Assembly: GCA_033582715.1 (NCBI GenBank)
Contig: JAVQZZ010000001.1
Location: forward strand, 118,431-182,430
Reading direction: 5' to 3'
Length of the DNA stretch: 64,000 nucleotides
Source of the DNA: Lysobacterales bacterium
GTDB lineage: Bacteria; Pseudomonadota; Gammaproteobacteria; Xanthomonadales; BPKI01
Shown piece after piece: positions 45,133-51,836 of the stretch; the stretch's first letter is position 1; each line of letters begins with the position of its first letter. The notes below the pieces were generated by a model. That model worked only from the letters and a program-made list of their open reading frames with translations, did not search any database and was not told the origin of the DNA. Position numbers and translations under genes: made by a program.

Positions 45133-45204
45133 CGGATCGGCTGCGGCGGCCGGGCGCGGTACCGGCGCTATCTTAGGGCGCCGCTGGGGCACGGGAGAGG
45201 CGCG

Positions 45205-45540
45205 ATGCTGCGCTACGAGGTCGAGCTCGCGGTCGAGCCGGGGACGGTCGCGGAGTGGCTGCAATGGATCCCGGCGCACGTCGCCGAGATCCTCGCCCTG
45301 CCGGGCTTCCTCGGCGCGGAGCTGCTGCGTCTGGAGGAGCCCGGCGGCGAGACCCCTGGCCGCGCTTCCGGGTGAGCTACCGGGCTCGCCGACGACGAGG
45401 CCCTCGCCCGTTACCTCGCCGAGCACGCGCCGCGCCTGCGCGCCGAGACCGCGCGCCGCTTCGGCGAGCGCCTGCGCCCCGCGCGCGCCGTCTGGCGTCC
45501 GATCGCGGCCTTCCGGCCGCCCGCCTCGCCCGAGTCTTGA
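45205..45540 (+). CDS. DUF4286-like small protein (frameshifted)
   Basis: MLRYEVELAV...WLQWIPAHVAEILALPGF...YL.EHAPRLR...RFG. Confidence 0.65.
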
Positions 45541-45679
45541 CAGCCGCAGCGCCCCGCTGCTCCGCCGCCCGCCGCCGAGGGGTTGCCGGTCGCTCCTCCG
45601 CCGACGTCTTGTGCACAGCGCCGCGATGCCGGGCCTGGCGTTGTCGTCGCGCCGTCACGAAGCGCCCCACCTGTTCGCG

Positions 45680-45692
45680 TAAGCCATTGATT
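45680..45692 (-). promoter_or_regulatory. IHF binding site consensus
   Basis: Reverse complement AATCAATGGCTTA is a perfect WATCAANNNNTTR match, with an AT-rich flank on its 5' side. Confidence 0.7.
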
Positions 45693-45779
45693 GTGGAGGC
45701 ATCTTTACAAATGGCCATTTTGTTTCCAGGAAGCCCCTGAGGCGCATCCGCGCGCGCTTCGGACGGCGCCGGGCGGGGC

Positions 45780-45814
45780 CAATCCACAGAGTTTTCCACA
45801 GGCGCTGTGGAAAA
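45780..45814. promoter_or_regulatory. DnaA box triplet (DARS-like core)
   Basis: CAATCCACA (45780-88, degenerate), 3 bp, TTTTCCACA (45792-800), 5 bp, TGTGGAAAA (45806-14, inverted); the last two match TTWTNCACA perfectly. Confidence 0.8.
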
Positions 45815-45913
45815 GCACTTTTCGTTCGACACGACAGCGACTTGAAGCCTGACTTCTGAGAAGCGTTCGAGAAACCGCCGGCAAGACCGCCTCGGCCGGA
45901 GACGGTCCTGCGC

Positions 45914-48066
45914 GTGGCGCTGCCGGTCGCGGTGGCGCGCTGCTTCGACTACCGCGCGCCCGGGGCGGGGCCGGACTGGATCGGCTGCCGGGTGCTCGTC
46001 CCCTTCGGCCGGCGGCGCCTGGTCGGGGTGGTGGTGGACTGCGGGCCGCCCGAGGTCCCGGAGCAGCGGCTGCAGTCGGTGCTGCGCCGGCTCGACGCCG
46101 AGCCGCTGCTCGATGCGCCGCTGCGCGCCGATCTCGACTGGCTCGCCGCCTACCATCACCATCCCCTGGGCGAGGTGCTGGCCACGGCGCTCCCGCCGCC
46201 GGTGCGTGCTTCCCTCCGCCCCGCCCGCCGGAGCGCGGCTCGCGCTCACGCCCGAGGGCCGGGCGCAGGCGCTCGCGTGCCCGCGGCGCGCGGCTGTCGG
46301 CGCTGCTGCGTTTGCTCGGCGGAGCGCGGTCCGCTCCCCGCCGGGGCGCTCGACCAGGCGCTGCCCGGCTGGACGCGCGATCCTCGTCCGCCATCGCGGT
46401 CGCGGCTGGCTCAGGTCTGAGGAGGATGAACCGCTGCCGCCCGCGGAGCCGGTGGTCCTCAATGCCGATCAGGAGCGCGCCCGTGCGGCGGTGCGGGAGG
46501 CCTTCGGCCGCTTCCAGCCCTTCCTGCTCGCGGGCGTGACCGGCAGCGGCAAGACCGAGGTCTACCTCGCACTCGCCGCCGAGCTCGCCGCCGCCGGCCG
46601 CCAGAGCCTGGTGCTGGTGCCGGAGATCGCGCTGGTGCCGCAGACCCTCGAGCGCTTCCGCCAGCCGGCTCGGGCGCGCGCGTCGCGGCGCTTGCATTCC
46701 GGCCTCCCCGCGGGCGAGCGTGCCCGGGTCTGGGCCGAGGCGCGGTCCGGCGCGCTGCTCGCCATCGTCGGTACCCGCTCGGCGGTCTTCGCCCCGCTCC
46801 CCCGGCGCGGGCCTGATCGTGGTCGACGAGGAGCACGACCTCGCCTACCGCCAGGGCGAGGGGCTGCGCTATTCGGCGCGCGACTTCGCGCTGGTGCGGG
46901 CGCGCCGGCTTGGCGATCCCGGTGCTGCTCGGCTCCGCCACCCCGAGCCTCGAGAGCCTGGCCCTGGTGCGCCGTGGGCGTCTGGTCGAGCTCCGGCTGC
47001 CGCGCCGCTGCGGTCGCGCGAGCGCCCGCCGGTGGTGCGCGTCGCCGACGTCGCCGGCCGGCCCCCGCCGGGCGGGATCGCCGGGGAGATCCTCGCCGCG
47101 ATCGGGACCGCGCTCGGGCGCGGGGAGCAGGCCTTGGTCTTCCGCAACCGGCGGGGCTATGCCCCGCTGCTGCTCTGTCGCGGCTGCGGCTTCCGCGCCG
47201 AGTGCGGGCGCTGCGGGATCGCGCTCACCTGCCATCGGGCCGAGGGCACGCTGCTGGTCTGCCACGGCTGCGGGGCGCGCGAAGCCGCGCCCGCGCGCTG
47301 CCCGCGCTGCGGCGAAGCCGTGCGCCTGAGCGGCTTCGGCACCGAACGCCTGGAGGAGACCCTCGCCGCGCGCTTCCCCGGGTTCCCCGTGCTGCGCGTC
47401 GACCGCGACAGCGCGCGCCGCCGCGGCGCCCTCGAGCGGCTGCTCGCTCCGGCGCGCCGCGGCGAGCCCTGCATCCTGGTCGGCACCCAGATGCTGGCCA
47501 AGGGCCACGACCTGCCGCGGCTCACCGTGGTCGCGGCGCTGCACGTCGATGCCGCCCTCGCCCGCGCCGACTTCCGCGCCGCCGAGCGCTTCGCCCAGCT
47601 CCTGGTGCAGGTCCGGAGGTCGCGCCGGACGGGCCGGCGCGCGCGGGGAGGTCTGGCTCCAGACCGCGCAGCCCGGCCATCCGCTGCTGCGCGCGCTGCT
47701 CGCGGAGGGCTACGCCGCCTTCGCCGCCCGCGAGCTCGAGCTCCGCCGCGAGGCGGGACTGCCGCCCTTCGCCCATCAGGCGCGGCTGTGCGCCGAGGGC
47801 AGCTGGCGAGCGCGCGCGGATCTTCCTCGCCGCGGCGCGCGAGATCGCCCCGCCGGAGCCGGGGCTGCGCCTCGACGGCCCGCTTCCCGCGCTCGCCGAG
47901 CGCCGGGCCGGGCGCCTGCGCTTCGAGCTCCTGCTCGAGGCGCGGGACGCGCGCCCCCCTCCATCGCTGGCTGGCGCGGGCGATGCCGGTGCTGCGCGCC
48001 GATCCGCGCGGCCGGCGTCTGCGCTGGTTCCTCGAGGTCGATCCGCAGAGCGCCGACTGGGAGTGA
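45914..48066 (+). CDS. priA: Primosomal protein N' (multiple frameshifts; start approximate)
   Basis: RVALPV...FDY, RVLVPFG, GVTGSGKTEVY, LVPEIAL, GTRSAVF, DEEHD, GSATPSLES, NRRGYAP, four CxxC pairs, GTQMLAKGHD, EVDP end. Confidence 0.93.
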
Positions 48067-48107
48067 CCTCGCTCCCGTAAGCTGAGGGACGGAGTCGGAG
48101 GACCGCC

Positions 48108-51057
48108 ATGGAGTTGCGCCGCTGCCTCGACTGCCACGCCCTCTCCTGGCATCCCGGCGCGCGCTGCCGGCGCTGCGGGGGCGGGCTCCGCCTCGAGGAG
48201 CTCTCGGCCCTGGTCGGCGAGCGGCTGGGGCGCTACCAGCTCGAGGCGCTGATCGGCGCCGGCGGAATGGGCGCGGTGTTCGAGGGGCGGCACCTCGGCC
48301 TCGGCCGCACCGTGGCGATCAAGCTGCTGCTCCCGGACAGCGCCGACGAGGCGGTCCTCGAGCGCTTCCGGCGCGAGGCGCGAACCCTCGCCGCGCTCGA
48401 CCACCCGCACGTCGTGCGCGTCCTCGACTTCGAGGAAGACGCCGCGGGGATCCCCTTGCTGGTGATGGAACGCCTGCGCGGACGCACCCTCGCCGACCGC
48501 ATCGCCGAAGGCGGAGCCTTGTCCCTCGCCGCGACGGCGGCCTGGCTAGTCCCCATCGCCTCCGGCCTGGCCGAGGCGCACCGGCTCGGCGTGGTCCATC
48601 GCGACCTGAAGCCCGCCAACATCTTCCTCGCCGAGGAGCGCGGGCGGATCGTGCCCAAGCTGGTCGACTTCGGCATCGCCCGCAGCGCCGCAGAGCGATC
48701 CGCGAAGCTCACCCGCACCGGCTGGGTGGTGGGCACGCCGCAATACCTGAGTCCCGAACAGATGGTCGGCGCCGAGGCCGGACCGGCGAGCGACCAGTAC
48801 AGCCTGGCGCTCGTGGTCGCGGAATCGCTGAGCGGACGTGCGGTGCGCGGCGACCGGCCGCTGGCCCAGGCCCTGGCGAACAGTCGCGGCGCCGGCGAGC
48901 TCGCCGAGTTCCTGGCCGCGACGCCTCTGCCCGCGCCCTGCGCCGAGGCGCTGGCGCGGGCGACGCGCCACGAGCCCGCGCAGCGCTTCCCCAGCATCCT
49001 GGACCTGGCCGCGGCCTTCGGCCCCTACGCGGCCACCGTCGAGGCGCCTCCCGTCGTGACCGGCCCCGCTTCCACGGTCGCGGTCGAGGCCCCGGCCTCG
49101 ACCTCGATCCCAACACCAGGCAGCGCCGCGCCGCCCGCGACGCGGCGCGGGCGCCGCCTCCTGCCGCTCGCCCTCGCCGCCCTCGGCCTCGCGCTCGGCG
49201 CGTGGTGGCTCGCGGTCCGCTGGCCGCAGGTCGCGCCCTCCTCCCTCCGGCTTCCCTTCGCCGCGCCCGACTTCGCCGCCACGCGCAAACTGCCGCTGCC
49301 CCCCGACGCGGGGCCATTGCTCGGCGTCGCCGCGCTGCCCGGAAGGCGCTTCGCCGCGGCCTTCGCGGTCGCCGGCGGGCTGCGCCTGCTCGAGCTCGGG
49401 GATGGGCGGGAGAGCTTTTCGGCGCTCTCGCCCGAAGACGAGCTGCTCGGCCTCAGCCGCGACGGCGCACTGCTGCTGCGGCGCGGCGACACGCTCCTCG
49501 CCCGCTCGCTGGTCAGCGCCAGCGACACACTGCGCCTTCGGCTTGGCGGACCGGAGGTCCGCGTCGCTCGCGCTCGATCCCGACGGGCGCATGGCGCTGG
49601 TCGAGAGCGAGGGCGAGCGCCGTCTGCTCGCCGCGCAGGTCGCGCCCCGGTCGCTGCCAGAGCTCGCCGGGCGGCCGCTCCGCGCCGCCGTCCTCGGTCG
49701 GAGGATCCTGGTGACCCTGCTCGACGCGCCCTCGGAATGGCTGGTCTACGACCAGGGCCGTCTGCGCTGGCGCCACCCCGCCGCCGGCTATCGCCCGCAC
49801 CAGCTCGCGCTGCTCGAGGACGCGGGCCAGGCGGCGCTCTGCGGCTTCGCCCCCGAGATCGAGATCATCGATTGGGAGCGGGAACGGGTGCGGCGCCTGC
49901 CGGTGCCGGTCAGCTGCAACGCCGCCCTGTGGCTCCCCGAGGGCGAGCGGCTGCTGGTGCACGCCCACGGTGCCCTGCTGCTGCTCGATCCCGCCTCCGG
50001 GGAGATCCGTGCCCAGCCCTGGCCGGAGGCCACCCAGCAGAGCCGCGCGCGGCTTCTGGCCTCGAGGGGGCGGATCCTGCTCGCCGAGCCCGAGAGTGCC
50101 GCCCTGCACCTGATCCCGCTCGCCGCCCCCCTGCCGGTCAGGCGCCTCGCCGAGCTCTCCGAACCGGCCTGGGATCTGGTTTCGGTCGGGGAGGAGGCCT
50201 ACGTCGCCGGAAGCACGGGGGAGCTGCTCGGCCTCACCGGCGACAGCCGCGTGCGCAGCCGCCGGATCCACGAGGCGGGAATCAGCCATCTGCTGCCGGT
50301 CGGGTCCTTCCTGCTCAGCGCCTCCGACGACCGCAGCATCGCGCTCTGGGATCGCCCCGAGCTGGAGCTCCGCTTCCGCAGCCGCGCCCACGAGTTCCTG
50401 GTCAACCACCTCGCCCTCGGCGGGCCCGACGCGGTCTGGAGCGCGAGCTCCGACGGCGAGCTCAAACGCTGGCGGCTGCCCGAGCTCCTGCCGAGCGAAA
50501 GGATCCCGCTGCGGGATGGCGAGGGCCGGCCGATTCCGCTCCACGCCCTGTGGATCGACGAGGAGACGGGCCGCGGCCTGGCCGGCTCCTGGAACCGGCT
50601 GCTGATCCGCCTCGAGCGCCGCGGGGGCGCATGGCAGCCCAGGATCGAGCCGGCGCCGGGCGTGCTCTACCGGATCCTGCCGCTGCCCCGGCTCGAAGCC
50701 TTGGTGCTGCTGTTCATCGAGCCCTCGAGTCTCGCGCTGCTCGATCTGCGGGACGGCCGCTTGCGGCCGCTCCCCGACCACGGGCGGCGCTGGCTCGGCC
50801 TCGCCGCCGGCCCGGATCCCGAGCGCTTCCTCGCCGCGGGCGTGGCGGCGCTCGGCCTGTGGCGGGTCGAACGCGCGCCGGAAGGCCTCGCCGCACGGCT
50901 CGAGCGCTTCCACGAGCAGGCGGCGCTCGGCGAACTGAGCGCCGCCGCCGCCCAGGCGTCGCGACGGCGCTGGCTCCTCGCGTCGGAGGAGGCGGTCCTG
51001 GCACTGTCATGGGAAAGCCTCGGCCCGCCCGAGCGCGCCGGGAGCGGCGAGCCGTGA
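48108..51057 (+). CDS. Hanks-type Ser/Thr kinase with N-terminal Zn ribbon, TM helix and C-terminal WD40-like propeller (frameshift near 49560)
   Basis: CLDC...CRRC; IGAGGMGAV, VAIK, HRDLKPANIF, DFG, GTPQYLSPEQ; TM LLPLALAALGLALGAWWL; WD repeats LLSASDDRSIALWD and WSASSDGELKRWR. Confidence 0.85.
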
Positions 51058-51836
51058 CCTCGTCACCGCAGGATCCGCTCCTCGCCCGCGCCGCCGCCTG
51101 GCTCGCCGAGGCGCAGAGCCTGTTCGTGCTCACCGGTGCCGGGGTGAGCCGCGAGAGCGGGATCCCGACCTTCCGCGAGGCCCGGAAAGGGCTCTGGGCG
51201 CGCTTCGACCCGGAGCAGCTCGCCTCCCGGGCCGGCTTCGACGCCGACCCCGCGCTGGTGTGGCGTTGGTACCGCTGGCGCAAGGCGCGCGTTCGCGCCG
51301 CCTCGCCCAATCCGGCGCACCACGCGATCGCCGCCCTCGAACGCCGGGTCGCGGACTTCACCCTCGCCACCCAGAACGTCGACGGCCTGCATCGCCGCGC
51401 GGGCTCGCGCGCGCCGCTCGAGCTCCATGGCAGCCTGGACCGGGTGCGCTGCGAGCGCTGCGGCCAGCGGCTGCCCTGGGAGGAGGTCCCCGAGGACCTT
51501 GCGGTACCGCGCTGCGCCTGCGGCGGGCGGCTGCGCCCGGACGTGGTCTGGTTCCACGAGCCGCTCGACACCGAGACCCTCGCCCAGGCCCTCGCCGCCG
51601 CCACCCGGGCCGAGCTTTGCCTCGCCGTCGGCACCTCCGGGGTGGTGCAGCCGGCGGCGAGCCTGCCGCTGGTCGCCAAGCGCGCCGGGGCGAGGCTGCT
51701 CGTGATCGATCCCGGGGACACGGTCCTCGGCCCGCTCGCCGATCTCTGGCTCCGGGAGCGCGCCGGCCGCTGCCTGCCCGCGCTCGCTCCGCGGCTGAGC
51801 GGCGCTCCCGGCCGGCCGCGCCGTGCGCTAGGATGA
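51054..51836 (+). CDS. cobB: NAD-dependent protein deacylase (class III sirtuin)
   Basis: TGAGVSRESGIPTFR, WYRWR (YxxR), TQNVDGLH, ELHG, CERC...CAC, RPDVVWF, GTSGVVQPAA; GTGA overlap with the kinase stop. Confidence 0.9.
   Translation: MTSSPQDPLLARAAAWLAEAQSLFVLTGAGVSRESGIPTFREARKGLWARFDPEQLASRAGFDADPALVWRWYRWRKARVRAASPNPAHHAIAALERRVADFTLATQNVDGLHRRAGSRAPLELHGSLDRVRCERCGQRLPWEEVPEDLAVPRCACGGRLRPDVVWFHEPLDTETLAQALAAATRAELCLAVGTSGVVQPAASLPLVAKRAGARLLVIDPGDTVLGPLADLWLRERAGRCLPALAPRLSGAPGRPRRALG

What the first reader, a model, noticed from the sequence alone, without database searches (positions are those of the whole stretch)
45609..45814. DARS-like DnaA-box and IHF element upstream of priA
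Seen: in the roughly 370-bp gap before priA, an AT-rich island holds a weak box TTGTGCACA (45609), a perfect IHF consensus (45680-92), a 12-bp palindrome AAATGGCCATTT (45709-20) and a triplet: degenerate box, 3 bp, perfect box, 5 bp, inverted perfect box (45780-814). Established: E. coli DARS1/DARS2 regenerate ATP-DnaA using a three-box core with one box inverted, and DARS2 needs IHF and Fis. As I recall the DARS1 core upstream of uvrB, its spacing is also 5 and 3 bp with a degenerate outer box. Inference: a DnaA-reactivating (or datA-like) site in a distant high-GC lineage, tied to the replication-restart gene, possibly coupling initiation control to priA expression. I know of no description of this at priA.
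Basis: partly seen in the sequence, partly recalled or inferred. Interest (0 to 1): 0.8.

Follow-up and report, generated by a model that had tools for sequence, protein, structure and literature searches.

The report
DARS-type DnaA/IHF/Fis module before priA
The gap in front of the replication-restart gene priA holds a conserved, self-contained docking site for the replication initiator DnaA and the DNA-bending proteins IHF and Fis. Its core is laid out like the E. coli sequences that recharge DnaA, and it is found next to many different genes in related bacteria.

Summary
The core (45780-45814) has the same geometry as E. coli DARS1 and DARS2, read here from E. coli K-12 itself: degenerate box, 3 bp, consensus box, 5 bp, inverted box.

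It belongs to a module of about 240 bp:
- a distal DnaA box at 45609;
- an IHF site at 45680;
- the core;
- an unexplained downstream block.

Block spacing is fixed in 84 aligned copies from gamma- and betaproteobacteria. A three-box pattern occurs in 208 of 401 sampled genomes of the class, against 0 for a reversed control.

The module is not tied to priA. Only 25 of 80 copies precede priA; others sit at rpmE, yihA or xseA. This genome has one copy, 56 kb from dnaA, and it is not oriC.

A DnaA-recharging role is inferred, not shown. The IHF and Fis sites lie on the opposite side of the core from E. coli DARS2. DnaA Gln208, needed for DARS in E. coli, is absent in 20 of 20 module-bearing genomes.

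Earlier notes of this scan describe the same module on other DNA.

Verdict: real, a new variant of a known kind, function untested.

The parts
45609..45617 (+). Distal DnaA box TTGTGCACA, 1 mismatch to TTWTNCACA
   Evidence: A DnaA-box-like 9-mer with at most 1 mismatch lies 160-190 bp upstream of the core in 78 of 84 aligned modules, 51 of them exact. TTGTGCACA is the variant seen in the same-order relatives and in named Lysobacterales loci.
45680..45692 (-). IHF-binding consensus (YAANNNNTTGATW as read on the + strand)
   Evidence: Only match in the window. It starts 100 bp before the core. In the 84 aligned modules, 22 have an exact match and 26 a 1-mismatch match starting 96-101 bp before the core. 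The consensus is as given in PMC11724364 (passage read).
45713..45727 (.).
   Evidence: Conserved block TGgtyAawwttTnncCA in the alignment. 36 of 84 are exact and 71 of 84 have at most 1 mismatch at 62-70 bp before the core, against 0-3 of 84 exact at six control offsets. Fis motif as in PMC6907758 and PMC11724364. Binding is not shown.
45780..45788 (+). Core box III-like, degenerate (CAATCCACA)
   Evidence: It is head-to-tail with the next box, 3 bp away, as in E. coli DARS1/2. The alignment consensus is tcATCCACA, though CCACA was part of the search pattern.
45792..45800 (+). Core box II-like, consensus DnaA box TTTTCCACA
   Evidence: It is TTATCCACA in the same-genus genome.
45806..45814 (-). 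Core box I-like, inverted consensus box (TGTGGAAAA on +), 5 bp from box II
   Evidence: Head-to-head with a 5-bp spacer as in E. coli DARS (PMC6868365 passages).
45835..45848 (.). Conserved downstream block (CAgcgACTTgaagc; family consensus CAnnnACTTAgc), function unknown
   Evidence: Alignment columns 297-308: C 61, A 53, T 71 and T 70 of 84. It is present whatever the downstream gene.
45905..48080 (+). priA, read in several frames in this assembly
   Evidence: PriA_3primeBD domain, E 1.4e-24, on 45905-46417. PriA-like pieces lie in three frames. tblastn with the same-genus PriA gives three pieces. Short-read contigs of two runs lack single bases at 12 listed places, and the tool notes 31 more not shown.
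45177..45540 (+). Upstream DUF4286-like gene, also frame-broken here; its stop bounds the gap
   Evidence: translations. The same-genus orthologue L004:1015-1344 matches DUF4286 at E 1.4e-16.

Best explanation
The gap holds one copy of an autonomous, widely conserved non-coding module. DnaA would bind one distal box and a three-box core. IHF would bind between them and bend the DNA, and a Fis-like site lies between IHF and the core.

The core has the exact layout of the E. coli DnaA-reactivating sequences: two boxes head-to-head 5 bp apart, plus a third box head-to-tail 3 bp away. The most likely role is therefore control of the DnaA nucleotide state. ADP-DnaA, made by the Hda pathway that this genome encodes, would assemble on the core. 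The head-to-head pair would loosen its ADP, and apo-DnaA would rebind ATP.

IHF bending, about 100 bp from the core and about 70 bp from the distal box, together with Fis, would shape or gate the complex. E. coli DARS2 works in this way, but here the layout is different.

Shown: the sites, their geometry, their conservation, their independence of the neighbouring gene, and the presence of Hda, Fis and IHF/HU-family genes.

Inferred: binding by these proteins, ADP release, and any effect on initiation or on priA transcription.
For: Geometry:
- It is identical to E. coli DARS1 (TTATCCACT, 5 bp, TGTGGATAA, 3 bp, TGTGTATTA) and DARS2 once one is read as the reverse complement.
- PMC6868365 passages state the opposite orientation of boxes I and II, the 5-bp space and a full-consensus box II.

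Conservation:
- 10 of 15 priA loci in same-order genomes carry it.
- 208 of 401 class genomes match the looser three-box pattern, with 0 for the reversed control. The tally is 206 of 399 without the two unpublished genomes G154 and G298.

Architecture:
- Blocks that were not part of the search pattern sit at fixed distances: the distal box, the IHF site at 96-101 bp and the Fis-like site at 66 bp.

Autonomy:
- The inner layout is the same beside unrelated genes.

Protein rather than hairpin reading:
- The W position of the two arms varies independently (for example TTATCCACA with TGTGGAAAA).

Copy number:
- There is one site in each of 5 complete genomes of the order, and it is the only such pair in this genome.

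Cofactors in this genome:
- Hda-like gene, 190 bits; Fis homologue, E 5.5e-15; three HU/IHF-family genes.
- DnaA F239, K243, R285 and L290 are kept in 20 of 20 module-bearing genomes.
Against: [quoted passage not shown] It is Thr in this genome and Ala in the same-genus genome. It is not Gln in any of 20 module-bearing genomes examined.
- In E. coli DARS2 the paired IHF sites lie about 200 bp away on the box I side (L144 1229-1257). Here IHF and the Fis-like site lie 100 and 67 bp away on the box III side.
- The distal box, IHF and box-cluster layout, with IHF 97 bp from the cluster, is that of E. coli datA, which does the opposite job.
- Box geometry alone is not sufficient. A review says DARS1 and DARS2 were picked among 52 similarly arranged pairs in E. 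coli (PMC5835720 passage).
- The distance to dnaA is not conserved: 56 and 58 kb in the genus, 806-1147 kb in three other genomes.
- There is no binding, expression or activity data for any copy.
Confidence: 0.5

Rival explanations
1. It is a datA-like or titration element. The module would bind DnaA and, with IHF looping the distal box onto the cluster, promote DnaA-ATP hydrolysis or simply sequester DnaA. It would thus restrain initiation rather than promote it.
For: E. coli datA read here has box 7 (TTATCCACA), then an IHF site (TAACCTATTGATA) in the same orientation as in the module. A head-to-head pair follows, 97 bp after the start of the IHF site. The module has 96-101 bp between IHF and core and a distal box on the far side. 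The module is the densest cluster of near-consensus boxes in this genome. The lack of Gln208 removes one DARS-specific requirement.
Against: The datA pair is spaced by 3 bp, the module's by 5 bp, with a third box at 3 bp. That is the DARS core, and it is invariant in all copies. datA has no Fis-like site at the matching place by eye. The distal box to IHF distance differs: 65 bp in datA against about 79 bp.
Confidence: 0.2
2. It is mainly a DnaA-controlled promoter region, an operator for priA and, elsewhere, for whichever gene lies downstream. It would couple expression of that gene to the DnaA level.
For: The core ends 91 bp before the priA start region. In 25 of 80 copies priA follows in the same direction, typically 90-180 bp away. 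rpmE or exbB also follow in the same direction in other groups. The review PMC5835720 (passage) places E. coli DARS1 and DARS2 in the uvrB and mutH promoter regions, so a dual role is known.
Against: The 240-bp architecture, including the distal box, IHF and Fis-like sites, is kept whatever the neighbour. This includes copies that face a convergent gene (yihA to module, then M48 peptidase on the opposite strand) and one at the 3' end of priA (L055). The consensus scan found no sigma-70-like promoter in the gap. An operator would not need a fixed three-box DARS geometry.
Confidence: 0.15
3. It is the replication origin or a second origin.
For: It is the densest cluster of near-consensus DnaA boxes in the genome, with an IHF site, and it lies only 56 kb from dnaA.
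Against: The cumulative GC skew is lowest at about 195-230 kb, around dnaA at 220.4 kb, not at 164 kb. The dnaA-dnaN gap has 49% G+C in one 100-bp window and two boxes. The module has only four boxes, no A+T-rich unwinding stretch (lowest G+C 56%), and lies 806-1147 kb from dnaA in three other genomes of the order.
Confidence: 0.02

Closest known systems
E. coli DARS1 (bioD-uvrB gap) and the shared DARS core
   Same: Three DnaA boxes in the same order, orientation and spacing: head-to-head pair 5 bp apart, third box head-to-tail 3 bp away, and one full-consensus box. It lies just upstream of a DNA repair or restart gene.
   Different: In the module both paired boxes are full consensus; E. coli box I is degenerate. 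The module has flanking IHF, Fis-like and distal-box blocks. I could not find these described for DARS1 in the passages I read. DnaA lacks Gln208. Activity is untested.
E. coli DARS2 (rppH/ygdT-mutH gap), activated by IHF and Fis
   Same: It combines a core with an IHF site and a Fis site. The cofactor genes are present. The spacer and core letters are very alike.
   Different: The E. coli IHF pair lies about 200 bp from the core on the box I side, with Fis beyond it (abstract of PMC11724364). In the module the Fis-like site (66 bp) and IHF site (about 99 bp) lie on the box III side, and a single distal DnaA box lies beyond them. The neighbouring genes differ. [quoted passage not shown] The species list is in a supplement that I could not see.
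E. coli datA (DnaA-ATP hydrolysis locus)
   Same: A distal consensus box, one IHF site in the same orientation, and a head-to-head pair 97 bp after the IHF site.
   Different: The pair is spaced by 3 bp, not 5. There is no head-to-tail third box at 3 bp. The distal box to IHF distance is 65 bp against about 79 bp. The effect on DnaA is the opposite.

Membership tests
DARS (DnaA-reactivating sequence) | Boxes I and II in opposite orientation with a 5-bp space | tested here: met
   Window 45792-45814, compared with E. coli DARS1 and DARS2 read from K-12. PMC6868365 passages.
DARS (DnaA-reactivating sequence) | Third box head-to-tail with the consensus box, 3 bp away | tested here: met
   CAATCCACA 45780-88, then 3 bp, then TTTTCCACA. 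E. coli has TGTGGATAA, 3 bp, then TGTGTATTA or GGTGTAAGA.
DARS (DnaA-reactivating sequence) | At least one full-consensus box in the core (box II) | tested here: met
   Two TTWTNCACA matches. They are TTATCCACA in relatives.
DARS (DnaA-reactivating sequence) | Promotes ADP dissociation from ADP-DnaA and raises ATP-DnaA | not testable with these tools
   This needs purified proteins or genetics.
DARS (DnaA-reactivating sequence) | DnaA Gln208 at the head-to-head interface (required in E. coli) | tested here: not met
   Thr in G000 and Ala in G001. 0 of 20 module-bearing genomes and 1 of 16 pattern-negative genomes have Gln. This may be an E. coli-lineage detail rather than a family feature.
DARS (DnaA-reactivating sequence) | DnaA Leu290 (AID-2), Arg285, Phe239 and Lys243 | tested here: met
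   Kept in 20 of 20 module-bearing genomes.
DARS2 subtype | IHF and Fis sites present in the element | tested here: met
   IHF consensus 45680-92. Fis-like 15-mer 45713-27 with 1 mismatch. Both are position-specific across 84 copies. Binding is not shown.
DARS2 subtype | Order core, IHF, Fis, with IHF about midway, on the box I side | tested here: not met
   The E. coli IHF pair is at L144 1229-1257, about 200 bp from box I. In the module the Fis-like site lies between IHF and the core, on the box III side.
datA | Head-to-head boxes 2 and 3 spaced by 3 bp | tested here: not met
   datA has TTATTCACA, agc, TGTGGATGA. The module has 5 bp. No 3-bp pair exists in G000.
datA | A single IHF site between a distal box and the cluster | tested here: met
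   97 bp against 96-101 bp from IHF to the cluster.
oriC | Lies at the GC-skew minimum and has an A+T-rich unwinding element and many boxes | tested here: not met

The most novel reading that the evidence does not exclude
The module is the general form, across beta- and gammaproteobacteria, of a chromosomal DnaA-recycling site. On this reading, a DARS-type core is gated by IHF, Fis and a looped-in distal DnaA box. It would work through a head-to-head DnaA contact that does not use Gln208. The E. coli DARS1, DARS2 and perhaps datA layouts would be lineage-specific rearrangements of it. Nucleotide recycling of DnaA by DNA would then be a widespread rule rather than an enteric speciality. Its frequent place just upstream of repair, restart or ribosome genes (priA, rpmE) may add a link to their expression.
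Probability: 0.35. Interest if true: 0.75.

Novelty: new variant of a known kind. Interest (0 to 1): 0.6.

Why it matters
DnaA recharging by DARS and discharging by datA are worked out almost only in E. coli. The passages I could read limit conservation to E. coli-proximal species.

This module is fixed in architecture, mostly single-copy, and present in about half of the sampled genomes of the class. Its layout differs from DARS2, and its DnaA lacks the residue that E. coli needs. That gives a direct way to ask whether DNA-catalysed nucleotide exchange on DnaA is general. It also lets one ask which features of the E. coli model are essential.

For annotation, it explains a strongly conserved gap in front of priA in Xanthomonadales-like genomes. 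It also warns against calling such box clusters oriC.

Tried and rejected
- RNA element: Rfam gave only two sub-threshold chance hits on the window region. It gave nothing at gathering score on 16 module-bearing loci.
- Promoter or terminator: the consensus scan found none in 45300-46100.
- Hairpin reading of the 10+10 inverted repeat: rejected, because the two arms vary independently at the W position in other genomes.
- Palindrome AAATGGCCATTT as a site of its own: not conserved in the same-genus genome.
- Origin of replication: rejected on GC skew and composition.
- Fis as a discriminator: a Fis homologue is in 15 of 15 module-bearing but also 12 of 15 pattern-negative genomes, so it is uninformative.
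- Expression: no RNA holder was listed among the public runs. This is no evidence either way.
- Literature, nothing found: searches for 'DARS-like' (1 paper, on V. cholerae); DARS2 with betaproteobacteria or homologs; DnaA box with priA, rpmE and intergenic; 'DnaA-reactivating' with Gammaproteobacteria (0 papers); DARS2 with Pseudomonas, Legionella, Shewanella or Xanthomonas. A first search was badly framed and useless. None of these found a description of this module at priA or of this layout.
- Papers not seen: Fujimitsu et al. [quoted passage not shown] It is not held. Supplementary Figure S10A of PMC4245941 was also not seen. Either may already show some of these loci.

Full report
**1. 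The observation**

- TTGTGCACA at 45609;
- a perfect IHF consensus on the minus strand at 45680-45692;
- the palindrome AAATGGCCATTT at 45709-45720;
- the triplet CAATCCACA, 3 bp, TTTTCCACA, 5 bp, TGTGGAAAA at 45780-45814.

The gap is 364 bp. It runs from the stop of a DUF4286-like gene (45538-40) to the priA start region near 45905. PriA_3primeBD matches 45905-46417 at E 1.4e-24. G+C falls to 56-67% in the gap, against 75-85% on either side.

The result is far beyond chance:
- The two perfect boxes are the only TTWTNCACA matches in the 64-kb window, with 0.03 expected.
- They are 2 of 5 matches in the 2.34-Mb genome, which is 73.8% G+C.
- The IHF consensus is unique in the window.
- In 200,000 shuffles of the gap alone, 2 gave two boxes, none gave the pair and 193 gave an IHF site.
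- No other head-to-head pair exists in the genome with spacers of 3-6 bp and up to 2 mismatches.

**2. Comparison with the real E. coli sequences**

I fetched the E. coli K-12 loci rather than rely on recall.
- DARS1 reads TTATCCACT, 5 bp, TGTGGATAA, 3 bp, TGTGTATTA.
- DARS2 reads TTATCCCAG, 5 bp, TGTGGATAA, 3 bp, GGTGTAAGA.

Read as reverse complements, both are a degenerate box, 3 bp, a consensus box, 5 bp and an inverted box. That is the window's layout.

Passages of PMC6868365 confirm three points. Boxes I and II are opposed. They are 5 bp apart. Box II is full consensus.

**3. What the element is**

In the same-genus complete genome G001 the gap aligns block by block. The core there is CCGTCCACA, 3 bp, TTATCCACA, 5 bp, TGTGGATAA.

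Of 15 priA loci in same-order genomes (the window included), 10 carry the element and 5 do not.

The record titles name these groups:
- Lysobacterales, Rhodanobacter, Dyella, Stenotrophomonas, Arenimonas;
- Woeseiaceae, Steroidobacteraceae;
- Chromatiales, Ectothiorhodospiraceae;
- Methylococcaceae, Thiotrichales, Cycloclasticus;
- the betaproteobacteria Sulfuritalea, Propionivibrio, Duganella and Nitrosomonas.

In an even sample of the class, 208 of 401 genomes match CACA-N3-TTWTNCACA-N5-TGTGNAWAA. Most have one to three copies. The reversed control pattern matched in none. Without the two unpublished genomes G154 and G298, both positive, the tally is 206 of 399. E. coli's own DARS cores would fail this pattern, so the figure is a lower bound for DARS-type cores.

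I aligned 84 copies: 74 of the 80 stored loci plus 10 from relatives and the window. Six loci were dropped for lack of flank. Blocks that were not part of the search pattern are conserved at fixed distances from box III:
- A distal box TTaTgCACAg, usually starting 176-180 bp upstream. It is exact in 51 of 84 and has at most 1 mismatch in 78 of 84.
- An IHF consensus starting 96-101 bp upstream. It is exact in 22 and has one mismatch in 26.
- A 15-mer fitting the Fis pattern GNNYANNNNNTRNNC with an A/T-rich centre, starting 66 bp upstream. It is exact in 36 and has at most 1 mismatch in 71. At six control offsets, 0-3 of 84 are exact.
- A downstream block CAnnnACTTAgc, 21-32 bp after box I. I cannot explain it.

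The window has all of these:
- distal box at 171 bp, matching the shorter spacing of its near relatives;
- IHF site at 100 bp;
- Fis-like site at 67 bp with one mismatch;
- downstream block at 45835-48.

**4. Not a priA device**

Of the 80 stored copies, 25 have priA downstream in the same direction. One has priA convergent.

The others fall into recurrent contexts:
- 18 lie beside a HemN_C radical-SAM gene, its Ham1 neighbour, and/or rpmE.
- 6 lie beside a YihA-type GTPase and/or a convergent M48 peptidase.
- 6 betaproteobacterial copies lie between xseA and exbB.
- The rest have assorted neighbours.

The inner layout is the same in all.

In the order of the window, 4 of 5 complete genomes have priA downstream and one does not. 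The priA link is therefore a lineage habit, not a defining feature. A side effect on priA transcription remains possible. A review places E. coli DARS1 and DARS2 in the uvrB and mutH promoter regions (PMC5835720 passage).

**5. Not the origin**

- The cumulative GC skew is lowest at about 195-230 kb and highest at 1.445 Mb.
- dnaA lies at 220.4 kb.
- The dnaA-dnaN gap holds a 100-bp window of 49% G+C and two boxes.
- The module lies at 164.2 kb, 56 kb away.
- In G001 the distance to dnaA is 58 kb. In three other complete genomes of the order it is 806, 914 and 1147 kb.
- Each of the five genomes has exactly one such pair.

**6. How it most likely works, and the caveats**

The genome encodes an Hda-like protein (190 bits; the curated cut-off is 194.8). 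It also encodes a Fis homologue and three HU/IHF-family proteins. ADP-DnaA should therefore be produced, and the cofactors exist.

The DARS-type core argues for nucleotide release from head-to-head ADP-DnaA.

Three results argue for caution.
- First, Gln208 of DnaA is specifically needed for DARS function in E. coli (PMC6868365). It is Thr here and Ala in G001. It is never Gln in 20 module-bearing genomes. F239, K243, R285 and L290 are always kept.
- Second, the cofactor sites are arranged differently from DARS2. The E. coli IHF pair is two one-mismatch sites 3 bp apart, as the paper describes. It lies about 200 bp from box I, and Fis lies beyond it (abstract of PMC11724364).
- Third, the distal box, IHF and cluster layout, with IHF 97 bp from the cluster, is that of datA. 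datA's pair, however, is spaced by 3 bp.

I therefore put DARS-like reactivation at about 0.5, a datA-like or titration role at 0.2, a mainly transcriptional role at 0.15 and an origin at 0.02.

**7. What is known**

- PMC4245941 (passage) says the DARS2 core is conserved among gamma-proteobacteria related to E. coli.
[quoted passage not shown] I could not read that paper.
- PMC6090056 (passage) mentions DARS-like sequences in V. cholerae at the E. coli positions.
- My searches found no description of this layout or of a priA-linked copy.
- Supplements were closed and may list some of these loci.

Earlier notes of this scan describe the same module on other DNA (read after my own analysis). 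They place it at rpmE, at uvrC, in SAR86, and triplicated in a Nitrosomonas. They agree with my reading but are not independent evidence.

**8. Assembly quality**

priA, the DUF4286 gene and the neighbouring MATE gene are broken into several frames. Marker completeness is 70.75%.

Near-identical short-read contigs from two metagenome studies lack single bases at 12 listed places in 46207-47948. The tool notes 31 more places not shown. The frame breaks therefore look like insertion errors of the assembly, not gene decay.

One contig spans 45300-46045 with 7 substitutions, none of them in a box, and 12 gap positions whose places were not listed. The core spacing in the window equals the family's canonical spacing.

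**9. Verdict**

The DARS-like reading of the core and of the IHF site is supported by direct comparison and deep conservation. The priA coupling is not supported as a defining feature, and function is untested. This is an ordinary member of a large family that is barely described in the literature I could search. It is a new variant of the DARS/datA kind.

Noticed in passing
window 45177-48080 and neighbours: priA, the DUF4286-like gene and a MATE-type gene on the minus strand are each split over several frames. Short-read contigs of two runs lack single bases at 12 listed places in priA, with 31 more not shown. The assembly probably carries many 1-bp insertion errors. Marker completeness is 70.75%.
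   Followed up: partly
window 48108-51836: One 1242-aa frame carries a Ser/Thr protein kinase domain (residues 43-246) and a Sir2 domain (1010-1182). It is either a real fusion or two genes merged by the same kind of indel error.
   Followed up: no
G000:C1:221404-221700 (outside the window): The dnaA-dnaN gap has a 100-bp window of 49% G+C and boxes TGTGGATAA (221412) and TTGTCCACA (221458). It lies at the GC-skew minimum and is the likely oriC.
   Followed up: partly
L144 1571-1583 (E. coli K-12, DARS2-mutH side): A one-mismatch IHF-like site (AATCAGAGAATTG) lies 97 bp from DARS2 box III, on the side opposite the published IBS1-2. Its distance and orientation match the IHF site of the module. 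It could be chance or a vestige of the module layout.
   Followed up: no
L155 1245-1427 (E. coli K-12 datA): The datA IHF site starts 97 bp before its head-to-head box pair. That is the same distance as IHF to core in the module (96-101 bp). It hints at a shared looping geometry or common descent.
   Followed up: partly
window 45835-45848; alignment columns 297-308: A conserved block CAnnnACTTAgc lies 21-32 bp after box I, whatever the downstream gene. It has no known motif. On the opposite strand it reads TAAGT(T/C), which is -10-like.
   Followed up: no
L034 and L075; L055: One groundwater genome carries two copies, one before priA and one between rpoD and an ABC-F gene. In L055 the module lies at the 3' end of a convergent priA. 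In the class sample, many genomes have 2-5 copies.
   Followed up: no
window 45300-48200: Near-identical contigs covering the stretch occur in runs labelled hot springs metagenome from two studies (X1, X2).
   Followed up: partly
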